NCBI GenBank assembly: GCA_019057385.1
Contig: JAHQJS010000006.1
Coordinates: forward strand, 320,001 to 384,000
Origin: Candidatus Borrarchaeum weybense
GTDB lineage: Archaea; Asgardarchaeota; Sifarchaeia; Borrarchaeales; Borrarchaeaceae
Length of the DNA stretch: 64,000 nucleotides
Reading direction: 5' to 3'
The notes beneath the pieces were generated by a model. It was given only the letters and a program-made list of their open reading frames with translations. It did not search any database and was not told the DNA's origin. How positions within the stretch are numbered: the first letter of the stretch is position 1; every line of letters begins with the position of its first letter. This document shows positions 39,892 through 54,205 of this stretch, in pieces. The translations under genes were made by a program, and so were the position numbers.

Positions 39892-40248
39892 ATGGTTAAA
39901 GAAGAGAAAAGCAGATACATAGCTTTTGAAGTAATTATTGAAGAAGATACTCCATTAGAGGTGATTTCTGTTTTTAATTCTATTTCACGATCGATTTTGT
40001 CACTTTACGGTGAGATTGAAGCCAGCCAAAGCGGTATTTGGCTCATTGAATTTGACGCTGAGACGTGCTATGGTATTCTAAGATGCACTTCAAAAAGTTT
40101 AGACAAGGTACAAACCGCTATGGCAATCGTTTCGAGTATTGATAATAGACCCACCATTATACGTTTGCTTAAAACTTCAGGAACAATTCGATCGCTTCGA
40201 TCAGCCCTCGAACAACCAGCATCGACCAGTGAAGATCTGCAAAGTTAA
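39892..40248 (+). CDS. rnp2: RNase P protein component 2 (Pop5/Rpp14)
   Basis: RYIAFEV, LYGE, GILRC and TSGTIRSL motifs. Confidence 0.9.
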   Translation: MVKEEKSRYIAFEVIIEEDTPLEVISVFNSISRSILSLYGEIEASQSGIWLIEFDAETCYGILRCTSKSLDKVQTAMAIVSSIDNRPTIIRLLKTSGTIRSLRSALEQPASTSEDLQS

Positions 40249-40373: not shown

Positions 40374-41465
40374 TTAAAACATTTTTAGAGTTCGTTGAAT
40401 TGCGTTTAGTGTTGCTGAGACATCGTTTGCATTAATAGCGCCCATATGGCCAATTCGAAAGATTTTACCTTTCAGTTTGCCCAAACCGCCTGCCACGATA
40501 ACGCCTTCTTGTGATAATTGTCCTCTAAAGTCCGCATCTGCAATGCCATTATGATAGACTGCGCTCATTGTATTTGCAGCCCATCCATCCTCAGGAACGA
40601 GTTTAAAGTCCATCTCTGTAAGACCTTTGCGCATCATTTCTGCTAATTTTTCGTGCCGCGCAAACCGTGCCTCCATTCCTTCGCTAACTATTTGATTTAC
40701 ACTTTCATGGAGTGCATAGATTAAATTTACTGCAGGTGTACCGAAATAACTTGGATCACCGCGCTCATATGCTTGCATGATGGGCAACCAGTTGTCAATG
40801 GAAGTATAGAAACACTCAACGGGATGTTTAAGTTTAGCGTGTGCGTCTAAGGCCTTCTGGTTGAAATTCAGTATTGCAAGCCCTGGAGGAACACCCAATG
40901 CCTTCTGTGAACCTGTGAAGCATATATCTACATGATATTTGTCATGATACAATCGTTGTCCTGCAAGAGAACATACTGCGTCTACAATAAATATCGTATC
41001 AAAATCTTTGACAACATTACCAATGGCTTCGATGTCGTTCGCAATACCAGTCGATGTATCAACATGTGTCACTGTAAGGACTTTGTAGTCGTCACTTTCA
41101 AGTTTTTCACGCACCTCTGTAGGATCTGCTGCCTTTCCCCATTCTACTTGAATTTCGTCAACAGCGATTCCGTGTGCTTTGAAAATATCACTGTATCGCG
41201 CGCCGAACACCCCATTATTTACTACTAATGCTTTTTCTCCTCTTTGAATCACATTGGTTGCTGCCATCTCCATAGCTAGCGTCCCAGATCCCGCAATAAC
41301 AAAGGGTTGTCCTTCAGAAATGAAGACCTGTCTTAGTTTTCTTAAAGTATCTCCAAAGATAGAGATAAATTCTGGTGCTACGTGACTCACAGTTACTTTA
41401 CTTAGAGCCCGTATCACTTCTGGATCAAAATTAATCGGTCCAGGGATCATTAAAAGTTTTGCCAA
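40374..41465 (-). CDS. Class V aminotransferase (alanine/serine-glyoxylate aminotransferase family)
   Basis: MIPGP, GSGT.AME, HVDTSTG, VDAVCS, GSQKALGVPPG and FRIGHMG motifs. Confidence 0.9.
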   Translation of the reverse strand: MAKLLMIPGPINFDPEVIRALSKVTVSHVAPEFISIFGDTLRKLRQVFISEGQPFVIAGSGTLAMEMAATNVIQRGEKALVVNNGVFGARYSDIFKAHGIAVDEIQVEWGKAADPTEVREKLESDDYKVLTVTHVDTSTGIANDIEAIGNVVKDFDTIFIVDAVCSLAGQRLYHDKYHVDICFTGSQKALGVPPGLAILNFNQKALDAHAKLKHPVECFYTSIDNWLPIMQAYERGDPSYFGTPAVNLIYALHESVNQIVSEGMEARFARHEKLAEMMRKGLTEMDFKLVPEDGWAANTMSAVYHNGIADADFRGQLSQEGVIVAGGLGKLKGKIFRIGHMGAINANDVSATLNAIQRTLKMF

Positions 41466-41963
41466 TTTTGTTCACCTCTAATGTTCTTTTGATAGGGAAA
41501 GTCAGCTAGATTAAGCTGAGCTTTTGTCGTTACTGCTGATACAATGGTCTCAGGTATGTTGTCTAGCAAAAGTAGTGAAACAAGGTTCCAAAGTTTATGG
41601 CGTACACTTGCTTTACTCATTTCCTTGAGGTTGTTTTCATATTTCGCCGATACTCGGCTAATCGTTTTGGTATTCAAAAAACTCTCTAAACCTACGGGAC
41701 AAGTTTCTCCCGTTCTGAACATCCGTGGGACAAACTTTGTCCCTAAACTCCTTGGTACAGCATCCCAACCTCACCTAAAACCAATTGAAATTTATATTGT
41801 GTGCTTTATACTTATATTGTATATAAAGATTTTCCCTCAAACGCAGTTTTCTCAAATTCAAGAAGATTTCAATACCTTAGTATATCTTTGCTTTGTTAGC
41901 GCACGTTTATCATTTGAAAAAACAGTTTTTTCGCGACAAAAAATAAAAAGGAGATTAGAAGGC

Positions 41964-42878
41964 TTAAACTTGTGTCCAAGCCTCTTTTAATGTACGTTTT
42001 ACATTTGCTATAGCCATCTCTGATGTAATACCTTTATGAGGTTTTACTTCGAAACTAACAAATGGGCGTTTACCTTTTTCTAAGTAATCAATTTCAAAAA
42101 GGGCATCTAGGTATTCTGCCAACTCTGTTGCGTCATTTTCTCCTCCTTCAACACCGAAGATCGGATGTTGATCTCCATACAACGGGTTGTTCGGGTCTTT
42201 AACGCAATTTCCGAGGTGCACTAATGTGAGGTAATCCTTCGTGGTCGATAATGCATGGGCAGGTGTCTCATTTAGTAGTGGAAGATGACTTAAATCATGC
42301 ATTAAACCGAAAGTAGGATATCCTGCCTCTCGTACTGCCTTGGCAAACTCCACTGCTGCTTCACTTGGCCCTATCAAAGATTTTTTATCAATATCACGAT
42401 CAAAAATCTCTAAAGTTAACGCTAGATTTCCTTGGCTTTTTGCATATTCGCAGAGTTGTTTTAAAGAATCGATTAATAATGCCATCCCCTTCTCTCTGGC
42501 CGCATCACCTGGATAAGGGCCACTTAGAACGGTAAGATACTCTGCGCCAACTTCGTAGGCTTCGTCAATAGCTGATTTTATTGCCTGTATGGATTTGTTT
42601 CGCAATGCATCGTCTAGTGCGTTCAAATCAAGTTTAGGAAGCAATAAAGCAGGCTGTGCCGAGAAATTAACTGTCAGACGAGAAGCTGTTAAGAGCGCAG
42701 CTACGTCATCTTTAATTGCCGGATCCTTGCATCCACCATAGTCAACAGCTGAGAAAAAGCCGTCTTCGGCTATCTTTGTAAGCGTTTCGAGTATAGGGCC
42801 TTCTCCCGCAAGGCATTCTGGAAAAACCATTCCATGCACTATACCGACTTTCATATAGAGATCCCAATGTTTTTTCAT
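41964..42878 (-). CDS. Xylose-isomerase-like TIM-barrel protein (candidate hydroxypyruvate isomerase)
   Basis: LEIFD, DLSH, VHLGN, DQH and SFEVKP metal-binding pattern; follows gcl. Confidence 0.75.
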   Translation of the reverse strand: MKKHWDLYMKVGIVHGMVFPECLAGEGPILETLTKIAEDGFFSAVDYGGCKDPAIKDDVAALLTASRLTVNFSAQPALLLPKLDLNALDDALRNKSIQAIKSAIDEAYEVGAEYLTVLSGPYPGDAAREKGMALLIDSLKQLCEYAKSQGNLALTLEIFDRDIDKKSLIGPSEAAVEFAKAVREAGYPTFGLMHDLSHLPLLNETPAHALSTTKDYLTLVHLGNCVKDPNNPLYGDQHPIFGVEGGENDATELAEYLDALFEIDYLEKGKRPFVSFEVKPHKGITSEMAIANVKRTLKEAWTQV

Positions 42879-42899
42879 TTTTTCACCGCCTTTAATTTG

Positions 42900-44612
42900 T
42901 TATCCCCTTTCAGCTATGGCGTCCAGAGCTAAGCCCATACTACAATTGGTTTCTCGTTCGCAGATTATATCTAATATTGCAGGGGCATTATCTAGAGCTC
43001 TCTGGAAGGCAGCCTTAAGGTCTCCAGGTTGTTCCACTCTTTCGGCATATAGTCCGAACGCTTCTGCAAGCTTAACGAAATCTATTCCTATTCCATGCTT
43101 CGCTAACTTATCTGTATCGTACGTTAAATCTACCGCATATTCATAGTCATAAACAATGGATTGGTTCTGTCGGATTAAACTTAAGAAACCGTTGTTGAGC
43201 ACAAGCATAACTATTGGAGTTTGGTAGTGAGCTGCCATCGCTAATTCTTCTACCATGAATCCTAATCCGCCGTCTCCTGTGATGCCTACGACTTTCTTTT
43301 GTGGCATTTCCATTTCCTCGTATCCGACTTTAGCTCCAATTGAAGCTGGTAAATCCCAACCCAACGTTCCCGCGCATCCGCAGACTTTATAATGTCCTGG
43401 TTTCTTTATTTCTTGATATTGACCGCTCCAAATCTGATTAAGTCCGACTGATGTCACAAAAATTGTGTCATCATCAAAGAATTCATTTATTTCTTTGAAA
43501 AGTCTTTGAGGCTTGATTGGCACATCATCAAAGTCTAATCTTCTCGCAAGCTCTTTGCGTCGGGCAGGTATTGACGATACCCATTCATTTGGCATTACTT
43601 TTGCATTTCGCGCTTTGGCTTGATCGATCATCATTTGTAGTGCTTCTTTGGCATCTGATACAATTCCTAACTCTGTAGGGACGATCTTGCCAATTTGTAG
43701 AGGATCAATGTCAATGTGGATGAACTTTCTGTCTTTAGTGTAAACATCTAGTTTACCCGTATGACGATCAACAAATCTGGCACCAACCGCTAAAACAAGA
43801 TCGCTCTCTAAGAATAGCTTGTTGCCAAGTCTTGTTTGCATGATGGTACCAACCAGTCCCGCGTATAATGGATGATTAGTGTCAAGCGCACTCTTTCCCA
43901 TGTAGCTAGCACAGATTGGTAAACTTAAATATTCTGCTAATTCTTGGAGTTCTTTGGAAGCGCCCGAAATAATGACTCCTCCTCCGGCTAAGATGATTGG
44001 ATTCTTAGCTTCCAAGATCATATCAATTGCTTTCTTGATTTGTCTTTCATTTGCTTTGGGTGTCGAAAAGTCTAAACTACGATCTGTTTCTGGATCATAT
44101 TCAATTTCTGTTCTCTGGAGGTCAACGGGGAGATCAATAAGCACTGGTCCGGGTCTTCCTTCTCTAGCGATTCGAAAAGCTTCCCTCATAGTACCTGGGA
44201 GGCGATAAGGCTCCCTAACACAATAACTTTTCTTAGTCACTGGTTTAACTATTTCTGCTATGTCAACCGCTTGAAACGCCTCTTGACCCAATACTGCTCT
44301 CGTCGCTGTCCCAGTAATTGCGACAATTGGGATAGAGTCAACTTGAGCGGTATAGAGACCTGTTACAAAATTTGTCGCTGCAGGTCCGCTCGTGCAGATA
44401 CAGACGCCAACTTTTCCAGTTGCTCGTGCATATCCGTCAGCTGCATGGCATGCTCCTTCTTCATGTCGAGCAATATAGTGCTTTATTTTTGTTGTTTGCC
44501 CAAGGTATTTGTAGACGGGATTTATTGCTGCGCCCGGTATACCAAACATTGCTGTTACTCCTTCATCTTCAAGGATTTTTACTATAACTTCCGCTACTTG
44601 CATTTTAGGCAT
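42900..44612 (-). CDS. gcl: Glyoxylate carboligase-like ThDP enzyme
   Basis: FGIPGAAINPVY, DSIP, EAFQAVDI, GRPGPVLIDLP, GLNQI, EELA, LIRQ and TNCSMG match Gcl rather than AHAS. Confidence 0.85.
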   Translation of the reverse strand: MPKMQVAEVIVKILEDEGVTAMFGIPGAAINPVYKYLGQTTKIKHYIARHEEGACHAADGYARATGKVGVCICTSGPAATNFVTGLYTAQVDSIPIVAITGTATRAVLGQEAFQAVDIAEIVKPVTKKSYCVREPYRLPGTMREAFRIAREGRPGPVLIDLPVDLQRTEIEYDPETDRSLDFSTPKANERQIKKAIDMILEAKNPIILAGGGVIISGASKELQELAEYLSLPICASYMGKSALDTNHPLYAGLVGTIMQTRLGNKLFLESDLVLAVGARFVDRHTGKLDVYTKDRKFIHIDIDPLQIGKIVPTELGIVSDAKEALQMMIDQAKARNAKVMPNEWVSSIPARRKELARRLDFDDVPIKPQRLFKEINEFFDDDTIFVTSVGLNQIWSGQYQEIKKPGHYKVCGCAGTLGWDLPASIGAKVGYEEMEMPQKKVVGITGDGGLGFMVEELAMAAHYQTPIVMLVLNNGFLSLIRQNQSIVYDYEYAVDLTYDTDKLAKHGIGIDFVKLAEAFGLYAERVEQPGDLKAAFQRALDNAPAILDIICERETNCSMGLALDAIAERG

Positions 44613-44647
44613 AATCTTCTCTCCTATTTTGTTTATTTTTTAGAGGG

Positions 44648-45634
44648 TTATCCATAAATATCTGGATTAACACAATTTGGTGGTTTGAGTCCCTTAACAC
44701 CAGCAATTACATTTTCAGCAGCCATGGTCGCCATTTTAGTACGAGTCTCTATTGATGCGCTTGCGATATGTGGCGCTAACACAACGTTATCCATTTCATA
44801 AAGTTCTGGTTCAGCTTTAGGTTCCATTTCAAAGACATCCAAACCAGCACCAGCAATCTTTTTCTCCTGTAATGCTTTAACGAGTGCTTTTTCGTCTAAT
44901 ACAGGACCTCTTGATGCATTGATCAAATACGCAGTCTCTTTCATCAAGTCTAGTTCTTTTGCGCTAATATAGTGCTTTGTTTCTGGAAGTAACGGGACAT
45001 GCAATGTCACATAGTCGCTCTCTTTGAGAAGCGTCTCTTTATCTACATATTGAATTCCTAATTCCTTTTCTAGATCCTCAAACCGTACGACATCTGTATA
45101 AAGAACTTTCATGTCGAAACCCTGAGCTCTTTTTGCAACCACACGCCCAATTCTTCCAAGTCCGACGACTCCCAGTGTTTTTCCGTAGACATCAGAGCCG
45201 AGGAATTGCATTATACCCCAGCCTTTCCATGTTTTTTGCCGGAAGTATTTATCTGCTTCGACAACACGTCGCGCGACTGCCATTAGAAGTGTCCAAGTGA
45301 AATCTGCGGTTGTGTCATCCAATACGCCCGGTGTATTAGAAACTGCAACGCCGAGTTCGGTGGCGGCTTTCCAATCGATATTGTTGTAGCCTACAGCTAC
45401 ATTGCTGACTACCTTAAAATTAGGATTTGCTTCTTTCACGGTTTTTAGAATCTCGGCGTTAATGTCGTCAGTGAGTAGGCAAACAAGCCCATCAAGGGTT
45501 TTCATTTTTTCAATAAACTCTGCTTGCGTAAGAGGGACATCACTTTCATTGAGTCCCATCTCACATTCCTTGTCGATCATATCTAAAGCTGGCTTTGGGA
45601 TCACGCGTGACACATAGACTTTTGGTTTACTCAA
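44648..45634 (-). CDS. gyaR: Glyoxylate/hydroxypyruvate reductase (D-glycerate dehydrogenase)
   Basis: AVGYNNID, NTPGVL..TTAD, ARRVVEAD, GLGRIG and PHIASA motifs. Confidence 0.88.
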   Translation of the reverse strand: MSKPKVYVSRVIPKPALDMIDKECEMGLNESDVPLTQAEFIEKMKTLDGLVCLLTDDINAEILKTVKEANPNFKVVSNVAVGYNNIDWKAATELGVAVSNTPGVLDDTTADFTWTLLMAVARRVVEADKYFRQKTWKGWGIMQFLGSDVYGKTLGVVGLGRIGRVVAKRAQGFDMKVLYTDVVRFEDLEKELGIQYVDKETLLKESDYVTLHVPLLPETKHYISAKELDLMKETAYLINASRGPVLDEKALVKALQEKKIAGAGLDVFEMEPKAEPELYEMDNVVLAPHIASASIETRTKMATMAAENVIAGVKGLKPPNCVNPDIYG

Positions 45635-45813
45635 AACTAACCCTCACGATCTCGATAAAATTGTAAAAGAGTTTATAGTACTTCGAATTTATAATTCTAA
45701 TCATGCGCGCACACAAACATATTCGTTCAACCTTATCTTTATAACTTTCAGCGTACTAATAATTCGGTATTAATTGGAGGAAAAATAAAACGGAGACCTA
45801 AAAGGCAAATAAT

Positions 45814-47298
45814 TTGAGGGGATCACCAAGAAAAGGAGGCTTGAAAATTACACTTGAGGAGCTTATGGAACATAAACTAGACTGGGAGGGTACAATCATC
45901 CCGGAATTGAAGGAGATTGTTGGAGAGGAAAATGTTCTCAATCATGTAATAGATCTCTATGTGTACAGTCGCGACGCCAGCATAGACACTGGATGGCCAG
46001 CAGCAGTAGCTTTCGCTCATAATACAGAAGAGGTTTCGAAGGTCGTCAAATTAGCGAACAAATATGAATTTTCGATCATTCCACGTGGCGCAGGCAGCAA
46101 TGTTTGTGGTGGAGTTATCCCTGCAAAACCTGATTGTCTTATTCTTGTCGTTGCAAGGATGAATAAAGTTGTAGATCTCGATTTAGAGAATTTTCTAATA
46201 ACTGTTGAGCCAGGAATGGTATGTCTAGATCTAAATAACTACATAGAACCATACGGCTTTTACTTCGTGCCAGATCCCGCAAGCGATAAAACAGCGACCA
46301 TTGGTGGCATGGTTAATAATAATAGCGGCGGAATTCGCGCAGTCAAATACGGTGTCACAGAACAATGGGTGATGGGTCTTGAAGTTGTATTAGCCGATGG
46401 GACAGTCGTTCACATTGGCAATAAAGCTATTAAATACGTTTGTGGTTATGATCTAGTTTCTCTCTTCGTAGGTTCAGAAGGAACTTTAGGTATTATAACA
46501 AAAGCAATGCTAAAAATGCAGCCGCTGCCTGAGGTCCGCCTCGTAGCTAGTGGTTATTTTGATACCGCCTTTGCCGCAGGTAAGTGCGTCAGAGAAATCA
46601 TTCGGAGAGGCTTTGACCCTTCAGGCACCGAAATAATGGATTATAAGACACTTAAAGCTGTAGAAGAGTATTCTGGTAAGGTAAAATTCCCTGAATGCGG
46701 TGCTGTAGTAGTTGTTGAACTTGACGGAAATAGAGAAGATGTAGAAATGCGTCTTGATCGATTAGAATTAGTCTTTAAAGAAATGGGCGCACTTCAAACC
46801 GAGGTCGCAAGAGATGCAGAAACATGCGAACAAGTGTGGGCGGCAAGAAAGGCAGCATTCCCAGCACTAACTTTACGAAGACCTACTGCTCGTATGGAGG
46901 ACGTAAGTGTCCCACTCGAAAACTTACCCGTTATGTTCCAAAAAATTGATGAAGTTAGTAAAAAGAATGGAATTGAAATAGCGACGTTTGGTCACGCAGG
47001 AGATGGCAACTTACACCCGATACTTCTCTGGGACGAAAGAGATCCAGATCAGCATAGACGCGCATTACAAACTTTAATTGATTTATGGCATGCTGCGGTA
47101 AATTTGGAGGGGACTGTAACTGGCGAGCACGGAATCGGAGTTTCTAAACTTATGATGATGCCGGTGGAACATGAAGCGGCAGTACTTGAGTTAACGAAAA
47201 AAATCAAACAAGCCTTTGACCCAAAAAACATACTGTGTCCTGGTCATGTCATACCTATTCCAGGTCAAAAATTCTTTACTGAGGAGGATGTAAGCTAA
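45814..47298 (+). CDS. glcD: GlcD-like FAD-linked glycolate/D-lactate dehydrogenase subunit
   Basis: PRGAGS..GG, PDPAS, TIGG, KYG, GSEGTLG, GHAGDGNLHP and GEHGIG motifs. True start may be slightly downstream. Confidence 0.88.
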   Translation: MRGSPRKGGLKITLEELMEHKLDWEGTIIPELKEIVGEENVLNHVIDLYVYSRDASIDTGWPAAVAFAHNTEEVSKVVKLANKYEFSIIPRGAGSNVCGGVIPAKPDCLILVVARMNKVVDLDLENFLITVEPGMVCLDLNNYIEPYGFYFVPDPASDKTATIGGMVNNNSGGIRAVKYGVTEQWVMGLEVVLADGTVVHIGNKAIKYVCGYDLVSLFVGSEGTLGIITKAMLKMQPLPEVRLVASGYFDTAFAAGKCVREIIRRGFDPSGTEIMDYKTLKAVEEYSGKVKFPECGAVVVVELDGNREDVEMRLDRLELVFKEMGALQTEVARDAETCEQVWAARKAAFPALTLRRPTARMEDVSVPLENLPVMFQKIDEVSKKNGIEIATFGHAGDGNLHPILLWDERDPDQHRRALQTLIDLWHAAVNLEGTVTGEHGIGVSKLMMMPVEHEAAVLELTKKIKQAFDPKNILCPGHVIPIPGQKFFTEEDVS

Positions 47299-47299
47299 A

Positions 47300-48484
47300 A
47301 TGACGAAAGAAAACGTAGTTTCAGGCACAATGCTACCACAAAGATTCGAAAAAATGATTATTTCCGAAGATTCCGAAACTGAGACGTACAGATGTGTAAG
47401 ATGTGGCTTCTGTAGGTTTGCATGTCCAATTTTTGACGCGACTAAAGTAGCTACTTTCAATTGCAGAGGTAGAATTATGGTTGAGCGTGCCCTTATCGAA
47501 GGAGGACTTCCTATTGACCAAAGGGTTCTTGATCTTCTTTATACCTGCACGTTGTGCAAACTCTGCGAAACGCATTGCCCTGCTAAGATCAAAGTCACGG
47601 ACGTGATGCATCACGTCAGAGAGTGGCTTGCTGAACAAGAACATGCCCTTGATGAGCATAAGGCAATCGCAAGCAACATATTGGAGATAGGAAATACTCA
47701 CGCTCAGGATCCCGCTATCTTCAAAGAGGTTTTTGGTGAGATAATTGCAGCTCTTCCAAAGGAATCTTCTACTCTTTACTATGCTGGATGTGTTGGAACA
47801 ATTGATTATCCAGAGAATTCACTCGCTGGCATCAAACTGTTGAAAGAAGCAGGAGAAGAATTCATAATGCTTGATTCAGAATATTGCTGTGGAGGTTATC
47901 TCAACTGGCTAGGGTTTACAAAGGACTTCAAAAAAGAAGCTGAGAAAAATATAGAAATCTTCAAATCACGTGGGATTGAGACCATTATTACGGCATGTCC
48001 AATGTGTGCATCGGTTTTCAATAATGATTATAAGGAAGTCTTGGAAGATATGCCAAAGGCTTATCATATTACGGAAGTTCTCGAACGCTTGGTTGATGAA
48101 GGAAAAATAAAACTTACGCGACCACTCGAAGCAAAGGTTACTTTCAAAGATCCTTGTCACCTCGGTAGATATGCACAGGTTTACGACGCTCCACGAAAAC
48201 TGATCGAAAGTATTCCAGGCGTTGAGTTCGTTGAATTACCCGAAACTATGGGCGAAGCAAGATGCTGTGGTGGACCTATTCGTGTTCCTTATACTGCCTT
48301 GAGAAATGATCTAACCGATGAGATCGTAAGAGACGCCGCTAAGTTAGATGCTCAATTTGTTGTGACGTCATGTCCAACATGTCACCATAGTCTAAGTATG
48401 AGAGCCTACAGAGAACGTATTCGCGTTTTAGAATTGCCAAGACTTGTTGCCTATTCAGCAGGTGTAGTTGACAGTTATCGCTAA
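47300..48484 (+). CDS. GlcF/HdrD-like Fe-S protein
   Basis: Two CxxCxxCxxxCP motifs plus two CCG domains (YCCGG, CPMC; DPCHLGR, CCGG, CPTC). Confidence 0.88.
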   Translation: MTKENVVSGTMLPQRFEKMIISEDSETETYRCVRCGFCRFACPIFDATKVATFNCRGRIMVERALIEGGLPIDQRVLDLLYTCTLCKLCETHCPAKIKVTDVMHHVREWLAEQEHALDEHKAIASNILEIGNTHAQDPAIFKEVFGEIIAALPKESSTLYYAGCVGTIDYPENSLAGIKLLKEAGEEFIMLDSEYCCGGYLNWLGFTKDFKKEAEKNIEIFKSRGIETIITACPMCASVFNNDYKEVLEDMPKAYHITEVLERLVDEGKIKLTRPLEAKVTFKDPCHLGRYAQVYDAPRKLIESIPGVEFVELPETMGEARCCGGPIRVPYTALRNDLTDEIVRDAAKLDAQFVVTSCPTCHHSLSMRAYRERIRVLELPRLVAYSAGVVDSYR

Positions 48485-48671
48485 ATGTGACAAGTATCTT
48501 ACCACGCATTACAAGTGTATGGGGATATATGTGTACATCAGTTTCTCCACTTTTTTTAAAAATTTAAATTATGGAGTCACGCTGACATTATCAAAGAAGA
48601 ATTGAATGAAAAACAACCGAACATTAGGTCATAGTAGTTTGGAGGTGTTCACGAAGTAGGAGGCTCGTTAA

Positions 48672-51600
48672 ATGAATGCATTGGAAAATAAAACGGCAGA
48701 AAATATCTTGGTGATTGGCGGCGGAATGGCTGGAATGTATGCCTCGCTAGACATTGCAAATCAAGGCTATACGGCTTTTCTAGTAGAGAAACGAGAAACG
48801 ATTGGAGGAAGATTTTCGCAGGTTTACAAAATCTTTCCGACTGATGAGTGCTCAGCTTGACCACTTACGCCCCTTATGTCAAGTGTTGCCAGAAACGACA
48901 ATGTTCGCTTGTTTACTCTTACCGAAGTCTTAGAGGTAAATGGCGAACCAGGGAATTTTACGGTAAAACTTAAGCAAAATCCTAGATATATCGATCCAGA
49001 CAAATGCACAGGATGTCAAAAATGCATGGAAGAATGCCCTGTTGAAGTGACTTCAGAATATGATATGAATCTTGGTGTCCGAAAAGCAATCTACCTTCCT
49101 TTTCCACAAGCAGTACCTCAGATTCCTCGCTTAGATAAAGAGAACTGCATTGACTGTGGCATGTGTGAGCTGGTATGCCCTGCTGACGCAGTGAATCATG
49201 AAGATTTTGAAAAAATCTTCGAAATCGAAGTTGGTTCGATAATCGTAGCAACGGGTTTTGATGAGTTTAATCCTGAACCATTAAAACAATTTGGATATGG
49301 ATACTACGAAAATGTTGTTACATCACTTCAATTCGAGCGAATGATGCATCCTACAGGTCCAACTCAGGGCAAGATAGTGAGACCTTCTGATGGAAAAGAA
49401 CCACGCAGAGTATTATGGGTTCAATGTGTGGGCTCTAGGAGTGAAAAAGAAGTCGGCAATAAATTCTGTAACCGGGTCTGCTGTATGTTTGCATTAAAAC
49501 AAGCTAGAGCCTATAAACTGCAATCAAAAGGAAAAGGACAGGCAGACCTTTGCTATATAGATATAAGATCCTCAGGAAAACTGTACGAGGAATACTACAG
49601 GGACACACGAAATAATTATATGCCTAATTTAATTCGCGGTAAAGTGGCGGAAATTCAAGAAAACGAAGAAACAAAAGACTTAATCATCTGGGTTGAAGAC
49701 ACTAATACTGGAGAGGTTTCTCAGATCAAAGATGTTGATCTTGTTGTCTTATCTAGCTCATTTGTTCCATCCGAAGGGACAAACGAACTATGCCAAACAT
49801 TAAGCGTTGAAATTAGCGATGATGGATTTCCCTTGGAAGTCAACAGTTATCATCCAATCGAAACAACTCGACCTGGAATCTTTATGGCGGGTGTGGCAAC
49901 AGGCTCAAAAGATGCTGTGGATACAGTTACTCAAGCAAGAGCTGCGGCATCGTCTGCAGTGAACCTTTTATCTGGTTCCCCACCATATATCAAATCATAT
50001 GCATCTAAAACGGAATTAGAAGGTTCTGGCGAGATTCGACTTGGCGTTTTTGTATGTCACTGCGGTGGCAATATCGCAAATTACATCGATATAACAGAAG
50101 TCATGGAATATGCGAAGACATTACCTGGCGTGATCTACGTAGATAATAATGAGTTCTTCTGTAGTGAGCCAGGGCAACAGCAAATCAGCGAGAAAATAAA
50201 GGAACTCAATATTAATCGAGTTTTAGTGGCGGCATGTTCTCCTTTACTCCATGAGGACACATTTAGGACTCTTTTAGAGTCTGCTGGAATAAGTAAGTAC
50301 TATCTTGAATATGTGAACATAAGAGACCAAGCAGCGCAAGTTCATATGCAGACACCAAAAGAAGCCACCGAAAAAGCAAAGGATTTGATCAGGGCTGGCA
50401 TTGCACGAGCACTACATCTTGAGATTGTGCCATATCGGATGGTATCAGTTGTCAACGAGGCTCTTGTTATTGGTGGTGGAATTGCTGGAATGTCAGCTAC
50501 CCTTGATTTATCTAATCAAGGATTCAATGTTCACCTCGTAGAGAAAGAATTGCAACTGGGTGGTCGTCTCAATTCTCTTTACAGAGTATTTCCAGAAAAA
50601 ACTGAAGCTAGCCAAATTGTGGATGAATTAACTGCACAGATAACTAATGCTCCCAATATCTCGGTTTACCTTGAGTCTTCGTTGGAATCCCTTGATGGTC
50701 ACATCGGTGATTTTACAGCTAAAATTAGGAGAAATAATGGAGCAAATACCGATATTAACGTTGGAGCTATTATCGTGGCTGTCGGAACAAATACATATAC
50801 TCCCAAAGATGGCGAATACGGTTACAATACTGTTCCACGTGTTGTAACTTCTCTTGAATTCGAGGAACTGCTCAAAACTCGTAATTTTGATCAAGATCCA
50901 AAGCGCATTGTCTTTATTCAATGCGTTGGGTCACGAGAAGAAGACGGAAACAAATACTGCTCCCGTGTGTGTTGCGGCGTATCACTGAAAAATGCGCAGA
51001 ACGTTAGAGAACTCTTTCCGAACTGTCAAACCTTTGTCCTTTTTAAAGAGGACCTACGACCTGTTGGAAGGTATATGGAAGAGTTTTATCTAACTACAAG
51101 AAAGCAATATCGTACCAATTTTATGCGATGGACAGAAGAAAGACCCCCAATGGTTACGGAAGCCCAAAATGGTAATGCTCTGGTGCAAATATACGATACC
51201 CTTTTACGAACTACATTCGAGATAGACGCCGATTATGTAGTGCTAGCGGTAGGACAAGAACCTCCTGAAGGCTTTGATGAACTGTGTAAGATAATAGGGG
51301 TTACTCGCTCTTCTGATGGTTTTCTTGAGCCTATCCACATAAAATTCAAACCTGTTGAAACACGAAAAGATGGTGTGTACGTAGCAGGGACCATTCTATC
51401 TCCACGAAGCATAAGCGACTCAATAGTGCTAGGTAAAGCCGCAGCGTCGGCAGCAAGTGTGCTTTTACAACAGAAAGAGATTCAACTTGAACTAATCAAG
51501 GCTGTATGTGACGAGAATCTTTGTAGCGGATGTAAGGTGTGCGTAATAGCCTGTCCATATGATGCTATAACTACTAAAGAAACTGAAGCAGGAGAACTCG

Positions 51601-52157
51601 TTTCGGTTACTGATGAAATTGAATGCAAGGGCTGCGGATCCTGTATTGTAGCATGTCCCTCTGGCGCTAGAGAACTTCGATACTGGCGGGATGAGCAATT
51701 CTATCCACAAATTGAATCGCTTTTAGCTGAAAGCAAGCAAAAATCATTACTTCTTGTTTTTGCTTGTGAAAAATGTGGATATGGTGCTGCTGACTTAGCT
51801 GGACTTTCAAAACTTCAATATGACTATCGTACTCGAATTATACGCGTGCCATGTACTGGTCGTGTTGACACACCGTGGTTACTTAAAGCATTTTCACTCG
51901 GCGCAGATGGCGTCGCAGTAGTCGGATGACACAAAGGCGACTGTGCATATATTGACGGCAACCTACAAGCAGAAAAATCCGTTGGATTGGCTGAGAAACT
52001 CCTTGAAACCATGGGCTTTGGTGAAGGCAGAACTGTAATGTACTTCCTTTCATCTGCGGAAGCAGAAAAATTCAGAGAAGCAATGCAAACTTTTGGCGAA
52101 AGTATTTCGAAACTTGGACCCAATCCGTCGCGCATAGCTCAAACTAGAACGGAATGA
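48672..52157 (+). CDS. hdrA: Selenoprotein HdrA (tandem HdrA modules) fused to MvhD, 1161 aa, Sec at TGA 48858-48860 and 51927-51929
   Basis: Track ORFs 48672..48860 and 48876..51929 share a frame. Both TGAs sit at conserved Cys positions (FPTDECSA-U-PLTP; GVAVVG-U-HKGDC), and translation continues with MvhD C-terminal motifs (YIDGN, SSAEAEKF, KLGPNP) to TGA 52155-52157. Confidence 0.9.
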
Positions 52158-52198
52158 TCTCTCTCGGGAAACCCTTTCGGGACTGAGAGAAGGACTGG
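52144..52198 (+). promoter_or_regulatory. Eukaryote-like (type II) SECIS element
   Basis: AUGA at 52154-52157, ~10-bp helix UCUCUCUCGG/CUGAGAGAAG with one mismatch, apical GAAA, mini-stem CCC-UUUC-GGG, closing GA at 52193-52194. Confidence 0.85.
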
Positions 52199-52275
52199 CT
52201 CCCTACGCAGGGATGCTTCTTATATATAACTTTCATAAGAATATCCTTCAATAAGACAATTAGGAGGACTTATCA

Positions 52276-52728
52276 ATGGGTAAACTTGAAGATTATGAAC
52301 TTCCAGATGACCTATATTATACAACTGAACATTCTTGGGCAAAAGTAGAAGGAGATTCTGTCGTGGTCGGCGTAACCGATTTTGCGCAGGCTATGGCTGA
52401 AAAGATTCAGGCTGTGCAATTACCTTTTGAAGGCGAGTCAGTAGAGTTCATGAAACCTTTTGGAACACTAGAAAGCGGCAAGTGGACAGGCAAGATTTAT
52501 GCCCCAGTCTCAGGTGAAGTTACTGCGTTCAATGAAGGATTGTGGGATGATGCCTCACTTGTCAACAATGATCCCTACGGCGAAGGTTGGATGGTCAAAA
52601 TTACTCCATCCAATTTGGATGAAGATCTTTCAAAACTTATGAAGGGTGGCACGGACGAATTTGTTCAATGGCAACTTGCCGAAATTGAGCGTGTAAAGAA
52701 GGAAGTAGAGGAATCAAAGAAGGAATAG
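52276..52728 (+). CDS. GcvH-like lipoyl-carrier protein (LbpA-like)
   Basis: YTTEHSW, GVTDFAQ, lipoyl-Lys motif LESGKWTG, APVSGEV and NNDPYGEGW. Confidence 0.88.
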   Translation: MGKLEDYELPDDLYYTTEHSWAKVEGDSVVVGVTDFAQAMAEKIQAVQLPFEGESVEFMKPFGTLESGKWTGKIYAPVSGEVTAFNEGLWDDASLVNNDPYGEGWMVKITPSNLDEDLSKLMKGGTDEFVQWQLAEIERVKKEVEESKKE

Positions 52729-52731
52729 AAT

Positions 52732-53271
52732 TTGGAAAACGAAAAGGTAGTAAAGATTTCAGATCTAGACTTGAGCCTCGCAGAGGAATTCATCGAGGAC
52801 ATGTCATTTGATCTCTTTGCTTGCTATCAGTGTGGCACATGCACTGGTAGCTGTCCTGTAGCACGGTTCGGTGGCGAAGAATTCAGTCCGAGAAATATCA
52901 TTCGGCTTATCATGTTGGGGGATCGAGAAGCAGTATTGCGCAATCCGCTCATTTGGTTGTGCACAGGCTGTTATGTATGCGAGGAACGTTGCCCTCAAGA
53001 TGTAAAACCTCCAAAGATCATCGTTCATCTCAGGAACATTGCGGCTAAGGAGAACATTATACCAAGCGTATGGTCAGATATCGCAGCCAATATCTTAACA
53101 TTTGGTCTTATGAACGAGATTGGGGAGTTCGAGAACAAAGTCCGTAAAACTCGTTTCAAACTTCCTGAACTACCAACTCCTGACGCTGATACAATGCGAA
53201 AACTCGCTGAAAAGATTAAGTTTGACAGATTAGTCCATTATAAACATCCTGAAGAAGAAACTGGTGAATAA
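52732..53271 (+). CDS. hdrC: Heterodisulfide reductase subunit C
   Basis: CYQCGTCTGSCP and WLCTGCYVCEERCPQ motifs. Confidence 0.92.
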   Translation: MENEKVVKISDLDLSLAEEFIEDMSFDLFACYQCGTCTGSCPVARFGGEEFSPRNIIRLIMLGDREAVLRNPLIWLCTGCYVCEERCPQDVKPPKIIVHLRNIAAKENIIPSVWSDIAANILTFGLMNEIGEFENKVRKTRFKLPELPTPDADTMRKLAEKIKFDRLVHYKHPEEETGE

Positions 53272-53273
53272 AA

Positions 53274-54161
53274 GTGAAGTACGCTCTTTTTCTAGGTTGT
53301 ACAATTCCCGAAAAAATGAACGGCTACGAAGCCTCTTCCCGCGTGGTCGCAAGGGAACTTGGGGTAGAACTGATCGATCTCCCTAATTCAGGATGTTGTG
53401 GTTCTCCTATCGTTCGTTCAATGGACGAACAATATTGGACGTTATTGGCAGCTAGAATTTTAGCTACAGCCGAAGAAATGGGCTTGGATCTTTGCTGTTT
53501 ATGCAACGGCTGCGTAGGCTCAATCATGCATGCAAATGAGTACTTGAAGAAGGATAAAATCGCAAGGGAACGTATTAACGATATTCTGTCAGACTTTGAT
53601 CTAGAATATAAAGGCACACTTGAAGTGAAACATCTTCTCAAAATTCTTTATGAGGATGTTGGACTTTCACGAATAAAGGAACACCTTGAGATACCGTTTA
53701 AAGACGGGCTTAAGATTGGGGCATACTATGGATGTCACATGCTTCGCCCTTCTGAGCTTACGCACCATGGAGACCCCGAGCGACCTACGCATATGGATGA
53801 AATCATAAATCTTACGGGAGCTATTGCATCAGATTATGAGGGGAAAATATCCTGCTGTGGAGCCCCCGTCTTAAGTAATGCCCCGGAGATCGCTTGGCGT
53901 CTGACACATCGTATCATATCTACTGCGCACGACGCAGACCTTAAGGGTCTCATAACAATATGCCCATTTTGCTCTCTTAGCCTCGATTTAAATCAGATCA
54001 AGGTTAAAGAACTCTGGGAACTTGACTATGATATCCCTGTTCTTCACCTACCGCAACTGTTGGGACTTTCAATGGGCTATGGGGTCAGAGAACTTGGCAT
54101 ATTTGAAAACAGAGTTAAGAGTGCGATGAAATTCCCTCGATTTCTTTTAAAAAATGAATGA
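53274..54161 (+). CDS. hdrB: Heterodisulfide reductase subunit B
   Basis: FLGC, CCG, CNGC, YYGCH, CCG, CPFC and HLPQLLGL motifs. Confidence 0.92.
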   Translation: MKYALFLGCTIPEKMNGYEASSRVVARELGVELIDLPNSGCCGSPIVRSMDEQYWTLLAARILATAEEMGLDLCCLCNGCVGSIMHANEYLKKDKIARERINDILSDFDLEYKGTLEVKHLLKILYEDVGLSRIKEHLEIPFKDGLKIGAYYGCHMLRPSELTHHGDPERPTHMDEIINLTGAIASDYEGKISCCGAPVLSNAPEIAWRLTHRIISTAHDADLKGLITICPFCSLSLDLNQIKVKELWELDYDIPVLHLPQLLGLSMGYGVRELGIFENRVKSAMKFPRFLLKNE

Positions 54162-54205
54162 TAGAAGCATAGCCTTATCAAATACTTAAAATATGTGATT
54201 AACTC

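What the first reader, a model, noticed from the sequence alone, without database searches (positions are those of the whole stretch)
40374..54161. Candidate new pathway: glycolate/glyoxylate metabolism wired to a selenium- and lipoate-dependent Hdr complex
Seen: divergent arms share a ~180-bp spacer. Left: glyoxylate reductase, glyoxylate carboligase, TIM-barrel isomerase, glyoxylate aminotransferase. Right: GlcD, GlcF/HdrD, Sec-HdrA-MvhD, lipoyl carrier, HdrC, HdrB. No hydrogenase, Mcr or other glycine-cleavage genes are in the cluster. Known: Gcl/Hyi/reductase form the glycerate pathway, and HdrA performs flavin-based electron bifurcation. Inference: anaerobic glycolate oxidation or glyoxylate disproportionation, with electrons bifurcated or confurcated through HdrABC using protein-bound lipoamide in place of CoM-S-S-CoB.
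Basis: partly seen in the sequence, partly recalled or inferred. Interest (0 to 1): 0.85.

Follow-up and report, generated by a model that had tools for sequence, protein, structure and literature searches.

The report
Lipoyl-carrier Hdr module beside glyoxylate genes
An Asgard archaeon places a selenium-containing Hdr electron-bifurcation complex, a GlcD/HdrD hydroxyacid dehydrogenase and a lipoyl carrier protein next to a glyoxylate-to-glycerate pathway. The lipoyl carrier proves to be a widespread, uncharacterised neighbour of such Hdr enzymes, so it is a testable candidate for their long-sought disulfide substrate.

Summary
All eleven genes lie at the stated coordinates around a 179-bp divergent spacer. 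The host is an Asgard archaeon of the 'Ca. Borrarchaeum' genus.

- HdrA is a tandem HdrA-HdrA'-MvhD fusion (48672-52157) with two conserved in-frame TGA codons and a SECIS-like 3' element.
- The carboligase keeps the catalytic Glu that classical Gcl replaces by Val.
- The TIM barrel is not a recognisable Hyi.

The genome has eight GcvH paralogues but no GcvT, GcvP, Mcr or ComA. Five of the eight lie within 5 kb of an HdrB/HdrD gene (6% expected), one of them at the end of the Mvh-Hdr operon.

The window's GcvH belongs to an 'ESGKW' subfamily. In metagenomes, 18 of 21 well-flanked loci of this subfamily carry HdrCB(A) or GlcD/HdrD. Desulfocarbo indianensis has the complete six-part module.

The two arms are linked only within this genus. 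None of 80 metagenome loci carries a left-arm gene, and a sister-family genome has GR-Gcl-TIM alone.

Verdict: the lipoyl-Hdr reading is well supported by comparative genomics only. The glycolate wiring is plausible but weak, and GlcD specificity is undecided. This is a new variant of a known kind (sHdr-LbpA, HdrD/GlcD). The scan's first readers noted similar clusters elsewhere in this genome.

The parts
40374..41465 (-). AGXT-family class-V aminotransferase (alanine/serine-glyoxylate type). It is set off from the other left-arm genes by a 498-bp gap.
   Evidence: Pfam Aminotran_5. NCBIfam hits are all below cut-offs, e.g. BhcA 217 vs 650. Best PDB relatives are AGX1 2BKW (217 bits) and Sulfolobus AGXT 3ZRP.
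41964..42878 (-). Xylose-isomerase-like TIM-barrel isomerase/epimerase of unknown specificity. It is a candidate tartronate semialdehyde/hydroxypyruvate isomerase.
   Evidence: PF01261. No Hyi model hit. Only a weak PDB match, to D-tagatose 3-epimerase. The Atlas gives a generic sugar-phosphate isomerase name. It is kept with GR and Gcl in G309.
42900..44612 (-). Glyoxylate-carboligase-like ThDP enzyme of a 'RHEEGA' clade
   Evidence: Gcl models score 720 (cut-off 791) and 594 (cut-off 711); the ALS model scores 546 (cut-off 538). PDB Gcl scores 528 bits against 339 for ALS, but Glu stands where Gcl has Val51. The Glu is invariant in 120 homologues.
44648..45634 (-). GyaR-type NAD(P)H glyoxylate/hydroxypyruvate reductase
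   Evidence: 2-Hacid_dh domains. PRK13243 scores 398 against a cut-off of 455. Pyrococcus glyoxylate reductases score 305-308 bits.
45635..45813 (.). 179-bp AT-rich divergent intergenic spacer between the two arms
45814..47298 (+). GlcD-type FAD-dependent 2-hydroxyacid dehydrogenase; substrate undecided
   Evidence: FAD_binding_4 and FAD-oxidase_C. TIGR00387 scores 434 against a cut-off of 568. PDB: LctD 275, 'glycolate oxidase' 9QGZ 263, LDHD 231 bits.
47300..48484 (+). HdrD-like iron-sulfur subunit with two 4-Cys ferredoxin motifs and two complete CCG motifs. It starts 1 nt after GlcD.
48672..52157 (+). Tandem HdrA-HdrA'-MvhD fusion selenoprotein of 1161 codons. Sec codons are at 48858-48860 (CxxU) and 51927-51929 (MvhD).
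   Evidence: Translation and sequence. The HdrA2 model scores 985 against a cut-off of 1100. Both TGA codons are conserved in L009, L010 and L076.
52158..52236 (+). SECIS-like conserved 3' element: a hairpin with a GAAA/A internal loop and a 3-bp G:C mini-stem. An AUGA overlaps the stop codon.
   Evidence: Fold. Near-invariance across 4 orthologous loci, with changes confined to the apical loop and one G-U-compatible stem position. No Rfam hit.
52276..52728 (+). GcvH-family lipoyl carrier of the ESGKW subfamily
   Evidence: PF01597; NF002270 scores 132 against a cut-off of 117. The lipoyl Lys aligns with that of T. thermophilus GcvH. K69, W70 and G72 are invariant in 73 relatives.
52732..53271 (+). 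HdrC-like subunit (2 x [4Fe-4S]), starting 3 nt after GcvH
   Evidence: TIGR03290 scores 110.5 against a cut-off of 160
53274..54161 (+). HdrB-like subunit with two complete CCG motifs
   Evidence: TIGR03288 scores 282 against a cut-off of 345. Ten invariant Cys in 68 homologues. Motif check.
54206..55450 (+). Kynureninase, co-oriented 44 nt after HdrB and conserved there in relatives. Its link to the module is unknown.
   Evidence: TIGR01814 scores 437 against a cut-off of 246. Synteny in L009 and L076.

Best explanation
The stretch holds two separable modules of a Borrarchaeum-type Asgard archaeon.

Right arm. This is a soluble redox module. Its lipoylated GcvH-type carrier (ESGKW subfamily) serves as the protein-bound disulfide/dithiol turned over at the CCG (non-cubane Fe-S) sites of two neighbouring enzymes:
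- HdrB(C), wired to a selenocysteine-containing tandem HdrA-HdrA'-MvhD flavoprotein that bifurcates or confurcates electrons with ferredoxin;
- an HdrD-like subunit, wired to a GlcD-type FAD 2-hydroxyacid dehydrogenase.
The carrier thereby couples a 2-hydroxyacid/2-oxoacid couple to ferredoxin. It takes the place that CoM-S-S-CoB has in methanogens.

Left arm. A Gcl-like carboligase, a TIM-barrel isomerase and a GyaR-type reductase convert glyoxylate through tartronate semialdehyde and hydroxypyruvate to glycerate. An AGXT-type aminotransferase links glycine or serine to glyoxylate or hydroxypyruvate.

Link between the arms. Their juxtaposition in this genus suggests that here the couple is glycolate/glyoxylate. 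I put about 55% on the reductive direction: glyoxylate (about -90 mV) is the high-potential acceptor, re-oxidises dihydrolipoyl-GcvH at GlcD/HdrD, and so pulls ferredoxin reduction at HdrA. I put about 45% on the reverse direction, glycolate oxidation lifted by reduced ferredoxin.

Shown: family-level gene identities, cofactor motifs, Sec features, gene-neighbourhood statistics, and presence or absence of partner genes.
Inferred: lipoylation, physical contact, the lipoyl group as substrate, the organic substrate, and the direction.
For: 1. All cofactor motifs are intact.
- HdrB has 10 invariant CCG cysteines.
- HdrD-like has two CCG and two ferredoxin motifs.
- GcvH keeps its lipoyl Lys.

2. 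GcvH cannot serve glycine cleavage here, and it can be lipoylated.
- There are 8 GcvH paralogues but no GcvT or GcvP in a genome estimated 100% complete.
- Lipoylation genes are present: four LplA-type ligases and LipS1 above its cut-off.

3. The methanogen substrate is unlikely. McrA and ComA were not found.

4. The association recurs in this genome.
- 5 of 8 GcvH paralogues are within 5 kb of an HdrB/HdrD gene, against 6% expected (P about 4e-5).
- One operon reads FrhB-like, HdrA, MvhD, MvhG, MvhA, HdrC, HdrB, GcvH. Another cluster reads GcvH-GlcD-HdrD-GlcD-HdrD.
- A lipoyl-E2 (with E1 alpha and beta) stands directly upstream of another tandem HdrA-MvhD, where E3 would be expected.

5. The association recurs elsewhere.
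- Of 80 metagenome loci of the ESGKW subfamily, 22 have HdrB/C within 5 kb, 26 have GlcD/HdrD and 5 have both.
- 18 of the 21 loci with at least 3 kb on both sides have one or the other.
- The common neighbour is a CCG-domain protein.
- The complete six-part set occurs in L105, L143, L151 and in cultured Desulfocarbo indianensis.
- Control: canonical ES[VM]KA-type GcvH in Asgard genomes, 4 of 20.

6. Left arm.
- The GR-Gcl-TIM trio is kept together in a sister family.
- A MOFRL glycerate kinase is in the genome.
- An anaerobe fermenting glyoxylate through Gcl, Hyi, Ghr and Gck is documented by proteomics (PMC8092247).
- One bacterial homologue of the Gcl-like protein sits beside a tartronate-semialdehyde-reductase-like gene and a fused GlcD-CCG protein.

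7. Thermodynamics (established values, my knowledge): glyoxylate/glycolate is about -90 mV, lipoamide about -290 mV and ferredoxin about -450 to -500 mV. This fits a classical flavin-based bifurcation scheme.
Against: - There is no biochemical or structural evidence of any kind; everything rests on gene neighbourhood and motifs.
- The two arms are linked only within one genus. None of 80 metagenome loci has a left-arm gene.
- GlcD is as close to the lactate enzyme LctD as to a glycolate oxidase. The genome has more than 10 GlcD/HdrD pairs.
- The Gcl-like enzyme fails both Gcl cut-offs and keeps Glu at the Val51 position.
- The TIM barrel is not a recognisable Hyi.
- The closest paralogous Hdr cluster in the genome (C4, about 630-647 kb) has no GcvH of its own.
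- Among other Asgard families, only 8 of 20 loci with a non-canonical GcvH show Hdr or GlcD neighbours.
- The donor or acceptor that enters at MvhD is unidentified.
- Reducing a lipoyl disulfide with glycolate electrons is uphill by about 200 mV.
Confidence: 0.5

Rival explanations
1. The right arm is a lipoyl-carrier-linked D-lactate (or other 2-hydroxyacid) dehydrogenase/Hdr module. It has no metabolic tie to the left arm. The glyoxylate genes are simply neighbours that landed there in the Borrarchaeum lineage.
For: - The best solved relative of GlcD is the lactate enzyme LctD.
- HdrD/GlcD pairs are generally read as lactate dehydrogenases (PMC10667645).
- The arms are unlinked in G309 and in all 80 metagenome loci.
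- The Desulfocarbo module lies beside acyl-CoA and hydroxyacyl-CoA dehydratase genes, not glyoxylate genes.
Against: - The head-to-head layout with a shared 179-bp spacer is kept in at least five genomes or contigs of the genus.
- A 'glycolate oxidase' structure scores almost as well as LctD.
- Glyoxylate is the one metabolite common to the predicted functions of both arms.
Confidence: 0.3
2. Hdr here uses some other, still unknown low-molecular-weight or protein disulfide. GcvH sits nearby for another reason, such as redox buffering, protection or regulation, and is not the Hdr substrate.
For: - Authors describe the Asgard Hdr substrate as unidentified (PMC11291895).
- Several Hdr clusters of this genome have no GcvH next to them.
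- One GcvH paralogue lies in a DGC-domain context with no Hdr.
Against: - There is strong, subfamily-specific co-localisation with CCG-domain genes in two domains of life.
- GcvH is embedded between hdrA and hdrC, with 3-nt spacing to hdrC.
Confidence: 0.12
3. The carrier works as in the sulfur-oxidising sHdr-LbpA system. It would carry sulfane sulfur or an organosulfur intermediate to Hdr, so the module would be part of sulfur metabolism.
For: An Hdr-like complex plus a GcvH-like lipoate-binding protein is the hallmark of sHdr (PMC6067878).
Against: - No DsrE, TusA or rhodanese gene and no hdrC1B1A-hyp-C2B2 order is seen in or around the cluster.
- HdrA is fused to MvhD and contains Sec, as in bifurcating anaerobic complexes.
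- The neighbours are GlcD/HdrD and, elsewhere in the genome, a [NiFe] hydrogenase.
Confidence: 0.05
4. The GcvH is an ordinary glycine-cleavage or glycine-synthase H protein that merely lies among Hdr genes.
For: It passes the NCBIfam GcvH subfamily cut-off (132 against 117) and has the lipoyl Lys.
Against: - No GcvT or GcvP in the genome.
- It falls below the equivalog cut-off (110.4 against 115.85).
- It has the distinct invariant K-W-x-G motif.
- There are eight paralogues.
Confidence: 0.03

Closest known systems
sHdr-LbpA system of sulfur oxidisers (Hyphomicrobium denitrificans and others; PMC6067878)
   Same: An Hdr-like complex with CCG-type HdrB is encoded beside a GcvH-homologous lipoate-binding protein. 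The organisms lack CoM-S-S-CoB. An archaeal-type LplA/LipS1 lipoylation route is present.
   Different: - Here HdrA is a tandem fusion with MvhD and two selenocysteines.
- There are no sulfur-transferase genes (DsrE, TusA).
- The partners are a GlcD/HdrD dehydrogenase and, elsewhere in the genome, a [NiFe] hydrogenase.
- The hosts are strict anaerobes.
- The carrier belongs to a different (ESGKW) subfamily.
MvhADG-HdrABC and HdrA2B2C2 of methanogens (flavin-based electron bifurcation; from my knowledge, Wagner et al. 2017 and Yan et al. 2017)
   Same: HdrA with FAD and Fe-S clusters and a Cys/Sec site, an MvhD domain, HdrC, and HdrB with two non-cubane cluster motifs. The best NCBIfam model for the fusion is HdrA2.
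   Different: - All subunits score below the equivalog cut-offs.
- Mcr and ComA were not found, so the substrate cannot be the methanogen heterodisulfide.
- HdrA is duplicated in tandem.
- There is no hydrogenase or FrhB gene in this cluster.
HdrD/GlcD pairs: D-lactate dehydrogenase Dld-II of sulfate reducers and archaea, and GlcDEF glycolate oxidase
   Same: A FAD-linked GlcD subunit directly followed by an Fe-S subunit with two CCG domains. Such pairs are noted in many archaeal MAGs (PMC10667645).
   Different: - No GlcE.
- The GlcF model scores 81 against a cut-off of 333.
- The pair is encoded with a lipoyl carrier and a full HdrABC set.
- The electron acceptor of the known pairs is itself unresolved.
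GcvH in the Ehe hydrogenase/HdrBC/HdrA2B2C2 cluster of Culexarchaeia (PMC9723716)
   Same: The authors proposed that GcvH may coordinate the disulfide used by HdrB in archaea without CoM/CoB. That is the same idea as here.
   Different: That was a single cluster in one class, with a membrane-bound hydrogenase, SdhA and CdhA. Here the association is quantified across a genome, the Asgard phylum and metagenomes, and it includes GlcD/HdrD.
LctBCD (Ldh/Etf) electron-confurcating lactate dehydrogenase of Acetobacterium woodii (PDB 7QH2)
   Same: LctD is the best solved relative of the window's GlcD (275 bits). The logic is the same: a high-potential hydroxyacid couple is tied to ferredoxin by a bifurcating flavoprotein.
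   Different: The bifurcating module there is EtfAB with NAD. Here it would be HdrA-MvhD/HdrBC with a lipoyl protein.
Glycerate pathway: Gcl, Hyi, GlxR/Ghr and glycerate kinase (E. coli; anaerobic 'Ca. Dichloromethanomonas elyunquensis', PMC8092247)
   Same: A Gcl-type ThDP enzyme, a TIM-barrel isomerase and a D-2-hydroxyacid reductase lie in one operon. A glycerate 2-kinase is elsewhere in the genome.
   Different: - The carboligase keeps the catalytic Glu (RHEEGA, not RHVEGA) and is below the Gcl cut-offs.
- The isomerase is not a recognisable Hyi.
- There is no GlxR-type reductase in the cluster.

Membership tests
Glyoxylate carboligase (Gcl, tartronate-semialdehyde synthase) | Three-domain ThDP enzyme that is closer to Gcl than to acetolactate synthase | tested here: met
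   Pfam TPP_enzyme N, M and C domains. PDB Gcl scores 528 bits against 339 for ALS.
Glyoxylate carboligase (Gcl, tartronate-semialdehyde synthase) | Score above the curated equivalog cut-offs | tested here: not met
   NF008431 scores 720 against 791 and TIGR01504 scores 594 against 711. The ALS model TIGR00118 scores 546 against 538.
Glyoxylate carboligase (Gcl, tartronate-semialdehyde synthase) | Val in place of the canonical ThDP-activating Glu (Val51 of E. coli Gcl) | tested here: not met
   The window has RHEEGA where both solved Gcls have RHVEGA. The Glu is invariant in the 120 closest homologues.
Glyoxylate carboligase (Gcl, tartronate-semialdehyde synthase) | Carboligation of two glyoxylate molecules to tartronate semialdehyde | not testable with these tools
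   An enzyme assay is needed. Context is suggestive: the GR and TIM-barrel neighbours, and a tartronate-semialdehyde-reductase-like neighbour in L059.
CoB-CoM heterodisulfide reductase HdrABC | HdrB with two CCG motifs, HdrC with two [4Fe-4S] motifs, and HdrA flavoprotein with a Cys/Sec site | tested here: met
CoB-CoM heterodisulfide reductase HdrABC | Scores above the equivalog cut-offs | tested here: not met
   HdrB scores 282 against 345, HdrC 110 against 160, and HdrA2 985 against 1100.
CoB-CoM heterodisulfide reductase HdrABC | The organism makes and uses CoM-S-S-CoB (Mcr and CoM synthesis present) | tested here: not met
   McrA (PF02249) and ComA (PF02679) were not found in a genome estimated 100% complete. 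CoB synthesis was not tested.
sHdr-LbpA sulfur-oxidation system | Hdr-like genes adjacent to a GcvH-like lipoate-binding protein | tested here: met
   GcvH lies between hdrA and hdrC.
sHdr-LbpA sulfur-oxidation system | hdrC1B1A-hyp-hdrC2B2 gene order with DsrE, TusA or rhodanese sulfur-transferase genes | tested here: not met
   The gene order is GlcD-HdrD-HdrA(MvhD)-GcvH-HdrC-HdrB-kynureninase. No such domains occur in the cluster or its flanks.
Glycine cleavage H protein (GcvH) | GCV_H fold with the lipoyl-lysine | tested here: met
   PF01597 scores 127 bits. NF002270 scores 132 against 117. The Lys aligns with the lipoyl Lys of solved H proteins.
Glycine cleavage H protein (GcvH) | Works with the P and T proteins of the same genome | tested here: not met
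   PF02347 and PF01571 have no match in the genome. The equivalog TIGR00527 scores 110.4 against 115.85.
GlcDEF glycolate oxidase | GlcD, GlcE and GlcF subunits present above cut-offs | tested here: not met
   GlcD scores 434 against 568. There is no GlcE gene. The HdrD-like protein scores 81 against 333 on the GlcF model.
Asgard/archaeal selenoprotein HdrA/MvhD | In-frame TGA at a redox Cys position, conserved in orthologues, with a SECIS-like element and Sec machinery | tested here: met
   - CxxU at codon 63 and U-x-x-x-D-C in MvhD at codon 1086, both conserved in L009, L010 and L076.
- A conserved 3' hairpin with a GAAA/A loop.
- SepSecS in the genome.
- There is no Rfam model hit, so the SECIS call rests on shape and conservation.

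The most novel reading that the evidence does not exclude
Lipoylated GcvH-type proteins of the ESGKW subfamily and related non-canonical subfamilies are the general protein-bound 'heterodisulfide' of Hdr-type enzymes in non-methanogenic anaerobes, including Asgard archaea and Desulfobacterota. In this picture a pool of lipoyl carriers shuttles electrons between the CCG sites of several modules. These are Mvh-HdrABC (H2), GlcD/HdrD (2-hydroxyacids), HdrA-linked 2-oxoacid dehydrogenase E2, and NAD(P)H:disulfide reductases. This would answer what HdrABC and HdrD reduce where CoM and CoB are absent.
Probability: 0.3. Interest if true: 0.85.

Novelty: new variant of a known kind. Interest (0 to 1): 0.7.

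Why it matters
Two questions about Hdr-type enzymes have stayed open for years, and recent Asgard and Korarchaeia papers say so (PMC11291895, PMC10667645):
- What disulfide do HdrABC complexes use in organisms without methanogenesis? These include Asgard archaea, Bathyarchaeia, Korarchaeia and sulfate reducers.
- What is the electron acceptor of HdrD-linked GlcD-type dehydrogenases?

This cluster and its relatives point to one concrete, clonable candidate: a lipoylated GcvH paralogue. The same module occurs in a cultured bacterium (Desulfocarbo indianensis), so the idea can be tested at the bench.

For Asgard biology, it would give a mechanism linking H2, ferredoxin and organic acids in the syntrophic metabolism discussed for the archaeal ancestor of eukaryotes.

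The glyoxylate arm also suggests how an archaeon without a glycine cleavage system could handle glycine, glyoxylate and glycolate.

Tried and rejected
- Complex prediction of HdrB (alignment A2) with GcvH (A3) gave no verdict (score 0.01). This is evidence neither for nor against binding.
- Rfam found nothing in 45000-56000. A strict regular-expression scan for copies of the SECIS-like core in the whole genome found only this one. I built no covariance model, because four nearly identical sequences would have given an over-specific model.
- Sequencing runs:
  - No RNA holder was listed for the whole cluster.
  - Two metatranscriptome-labelled runs hold only 150-390-nt contigs of a relative (90-98% alike) on hdrA, hdrB and a few other spots. 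That is too little to claim expression.
- Contexts of five bacterial homologues of the Gcl-like protein are mostly unrelated: sugar transport, GFO/IDH oxidoreductases, URO-D. They gave no general clue to its substrate.
- The TIM barrel could not be tied to Hyi by NCBIfam, PDB sequence search or the protein Atlas.
- GlcD substrate could not be assigned from sequence similarity to solved enzymes.
- I considered and set aside the idea that the Gcl-like enzyme acts like an E1, formylating the lipoyl arm. Nothing but co-location supports it.
- The contexts of the closest GcvH relatives in Theionarchaea-type contigs (CBS-domain and Trk genes) were uninformative.

Full report
**What is there**

The window is contig C6:320001-384000 of a 4.18-Mb, 8-contig genome. 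An Rpp14/Pop5 RNase P subunit sits just upstream, which marks the host as an archaeon. The nearest public records are 'Candidatus Borrarchaeum yapensis' and a Promethearchaeota MAG, which place it in the Asgard group. Both carry the whole cluster in the same order, with 75-98% amino-acid identity.

**Left arm**

- 44648-45634 is a D-2-hydroxyacid dehydrogenase. Its closest relatives are the Pyrococcus glyoxylate reductases at 305-308 bits, and it scores 398 against a cut-off of 455 on the archaeal glyoxylate reductase model.
- 42900-44612 is a ThDP enzyme much nearer to solved glyoxylate carboligases (528 bits) than to acetolactate synthases (339 bits).
  - It misses both Gcl cut-offs.
  - It reads RHEEGA where both solved Gcls read RHVEGA. 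So it keeps the canonical catalytic Glu, whose replacement by Val is, to my knowledge, the hallmark of classical Gcl.
  - This Glu is invariant in its 120 closest homologues. Those form a large, mostly bacterial clade at 58-65% identity that sources name inconsistently as ALS or tartronate-semialdehyde synthase.
- 41964-42878 is a xylose-isomerase-like TIM barrel with no recognisable Hyi signature.
- 40374-41465 is an AGXT-family aminotransferase.
- The genome has a MOFRL glycerate kinase.

The simplest reading is a glycerate pathway: glyoxylate to tartronate semialdehyde, to hydroxypyruvate, to glycerate. An anaerobic precedent is documented by proteomics (PMC8092247). The catalytic assignment of the carboligase and the isomerase remains unproven.

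**Right arm**

- GlcD-like (45814-47298) is followed after 1 nt by an HdrD-like protein with two ferredoxin motifs and two full CCG motifs.
- After a 187-nt gap comes a 1161-codon gene (48672-52157), not the 1017-codon ORF a plain ORF scan reports. It is a tandem HdrA-HdrA'-MvhD fusion whose best model is HdrA2. It has TGA at codon 63 in a C-x-x-U motif and at codon 1086 in the MvhD cluster motif.
- Both TGAs are conserved in three orthologous loci whose proteins are only 70-90% identical.
- The 118-nt stretch before the next gene is almost invariant among four loci.
  - It folds into a hairpin with a GAAA/A internal loop and a 3-bp G:C mini-stem. An AUGA overlaps the stop codon.
  - This is the shape known for archaeal and Asgard SECIS elements (my knowledge; eukaryote-like SECIS in Asgards are noted in PMC11291895).
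- SepSecS is in the genome.
- Then follow GcvH (52276-52728), HdrC 3 nt later, HdrB 2 nt later with ten invariant CCG cysteines, and 44 nt later a true kynureninase.

**The lipoyl carrier**

The GcvH keeps the lipoyl lysine. It belongs to a subfamily with an invariant K-W-x-G ('ESGKW') motif in place of the usual ESVKA.

| Searched in the genome | Result |
|---|---|
| GcvH (PF01597) | 8 paralogues |
| GcvT, GcvP | none |
| Canonical LipA | none |
| LplA-type ligases | 4, one next to LipS1 (above cut-off) |
| Dihydrolipoyl dehydrogenase | one, at the cut-off |
| 2-oxoacid dehydrogenase E2 | 2 |
| McrA, ComA | none |

Five of the eight GcvH genes lie within 5 kb of an HdrB/HdrD-type gene. Only 6% of random positions do so, given 27 such genes (binomial P about 4e-5).

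The paralogue contexts are telling:
- One operon reads FrhB-like, HdrA, MvhD, MvhG, MvhA, HdrC, HdrB, GcvH. This is the classical bifurcating hydrogenase/Hdr set, ending in a lipoyl carrier.
- One cluster reads GcvH-GlcD-HdrD-GlcD-HdrD.
- One GcvH sits beside a CoA-disulfide-reductase-like flavoprotein, 3.5 kb from HdrCB.
- Separately, an E1alpha-E1beta-E2 (lipoyl) operon runs straight into another tandem HdrA-MvhD where E3 would be expected.

**Beyond this genome**

| Sample | Loci with Hdr or GlcD/HdrD near GcvH |
|---|---|
| ESGKW-type, metagenome contigs, all 80 loci (within 5 kb) | 43 (22 HdrB/C, 26 GlcD/HdrD, 5 both) |
| Same set, at least 3 kb of DNA on both sides | 18 of 21 |
| Non-canonical GcvH, other Asgard families | 8 of 20 |
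| Canonical ES[VM]KA-type, Asgard genomes (control) | 4 of 20, three from one genus |

- The feature common to the neighbours is a CCG-domain subunit.
- The full six-part set (HdrA, HdrC, HdrB, GcvH, GlcD, HdrD) occurs in three metagenome contigs and in the cultured sulfate reducer Desulfocarbo indianensis.
- These counts are descriptive. The loci are not phylogenetically independent, and the control is not matched for Hdr gene density.

**Are the two arms wired together?**

The evidence here is thin.
- Orthologues of the Gcl-like gene occur in Asgard genomes only in this genus and in one genome of a sister family.
- In that genome the GR-Gcl-TIM trio stands alone among housekeeping genes. No orthologue of this HdrB was found there; the assembly is 80% complete.
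- None of the 80 metagenome loci has a left-arm gene.
- Bacterial homologues of the Gcl-like protein lie in unrelated contexts. The one exception sits beside a tartronate-semialdehyde-reductase-like gene, 6.5 kb from a fused GlcD-CCG protein.
- GlcD is equally close to the lactate enzyme LctD and to a 'glycolate oxidase'.

The glycolate/glyoxylate assignment therefore rests on a head-to-head arrangement conserved within one genus, plus the fact that glyoxylate is the metabolite both arms could share.

**Mechanism (inferred)**

I take lipoyl-GcvH to be the disulfide/dithiol substrate of both CCG enzymes. It would shuttle between HdrB, which is wired through HdrC to the bifurcating flavin of HdrA, and HdrD, which is wired to the GlcD flavin.

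The standard potentials are about -90 mV for glyoxylate/glycolate, -290 mV for lipoamide and -450 to -500 mV for ferredoxin (my knowledge). With these values the textbook direction is reductive: glyoxylate re-oxidises the dithiol, and this pulls ferredoxin reduction from a mid-potential donor entering at MvhD.

The oxidative direction would be glycolate oxidation lifted by reduced ferredoxin, as in LctBCD. It suits growth on glycolate but needs an uphill first step. I cannot decide between the two. The donor or acceptor at MvhD is unknown.

**What is known, and novelty**

- A lipoate-binding GcvH homologue working with an Hdr-like complex is established in sulfur oxidisers (PMC6067878).
- GcvH as a possible disulfide carrier for HdrB was suggested for one Culexarchaeia cluster (PMC9723716).
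- HdrD/GlcD pairs are widely noted (PMC10667645).
- Sec-HdrA in Asgards is known (PMC11291895).
- In the searchable library I found no paper describing the GcvH plus HdrA/MvhD-HdrCB plus GlcD/HdrD module of anaerobes, nor its link to glyoxylate genes.

I therefore rate it a new variant of a known kind. Its main value is a testable candidate for the unidentified Hdr substrate of non-methanogens.

First-stage notes of this scan on other windows of the same genome had flagged the Mvh/Hdr operon ending in GcvH and the ESGKW motif. I checked both independently.

Noticed in passing
window 54206-55450 (+): A bona fide kynureninase (TIGR01814 scores 437 bits against a cut-off of 246) lies 44 nt after hdrB, on the same strand. 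It is conserved there in L009 and L076. This is an odd partner for an Hdr operon in an anaerobic archaeon.
   Followed up: partly
L074 (G000:C4:1189000-1204000); genes at C4:1195646-1202486 (-): A 2-oxoacid dehydrogenase operon (E1alpha, E1beta, E2 with lipoyl and E3-binding domains) runs directly into a tandem HdrA-HdrA-MvhD gene instead of an E3. An HdrD-like gene and an OYE/PNDR flavoprotein gene are nearby. Dihydrolipoyl-E2 may be re-oxidised by an Hdr module.
   Followed up: partly
L071 (G000:C6:674000-693000): An operon reads FrhB-like, HdrA, MvhD, MvhG, MvhA, HdrC, HdrB, GcvH (EAGKY motif). A second GcvH and SepSecS lie just upstream. The classical bifurcating hydrogenase/Hdr set thus carries its own lipoyl carrier.
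   Followed up: partly
L068 (G000:C5:410000-424000): A canonical-motif GcvH (ESVKT) lies next to a CoA-disulfide-reductase/NADH-oxidase-like flavoprotein, an ADP-forming acyl-CoA synthetase and a DRTGG protein. It is 3.5 kb from an HdrC-HdrB pair.
   Followed up: partly
proteins P0001-P0120 (homologues of window 42900-44612): A large, mostly bacterial clade of Gcl-like enzymes has an invariant RHEEGA motif (Glu kept at the Gcl Val51 position). Sources annotate it inconsistently as ALS large subunit or tartronate-semialdehyde synthase. Its real reaction is untested.
   Followed up: partly
L073:9416-10405 (-) (G000:C7:821415-822404): A TnpB/Cas12f-like OrfB_IS605 gene lies immediately beside a GcvH paralogue. 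It sits between two GlcD-HdrD pairs and two HEAT/PBS-lyase repeat proteins.
   Followed up: no
L070 (G000:C4:1061000-1075000): An orphan GcvH (ESVKT) follows two DGC-domain proteins and lies beside a PhoU/TrkA_C protein, with no Hdr nearby. This may be a different role for a lipoyl carrier.
   Followed up: no
window 41466-41963: A 498-bp gap between the aminotransferase and the TIM-barrel gene holds only a 90-codon ORF (41450-41722, minus strand) with no family match. The gap size is kept in L009.
   Followed up: no
window 38530-39141 and 39892-40248: A Schlafen/AlbA_2-domain protein and the RNase P subunit Rpp14/Pop5 lie just upstream of the cluster. The latter was the first sign that the host is an archaeon.
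   Followed up: no
L183, L184, L186 (Asgard family f14, genus g26): A 'DSVKATS'-type GcvH lies about 2 kb from an HdrC-HdrB...HdrA set in three genomes of one genus. Some near-canonical GcvH types are therefore also Hdr-linked.
   Followed up: no
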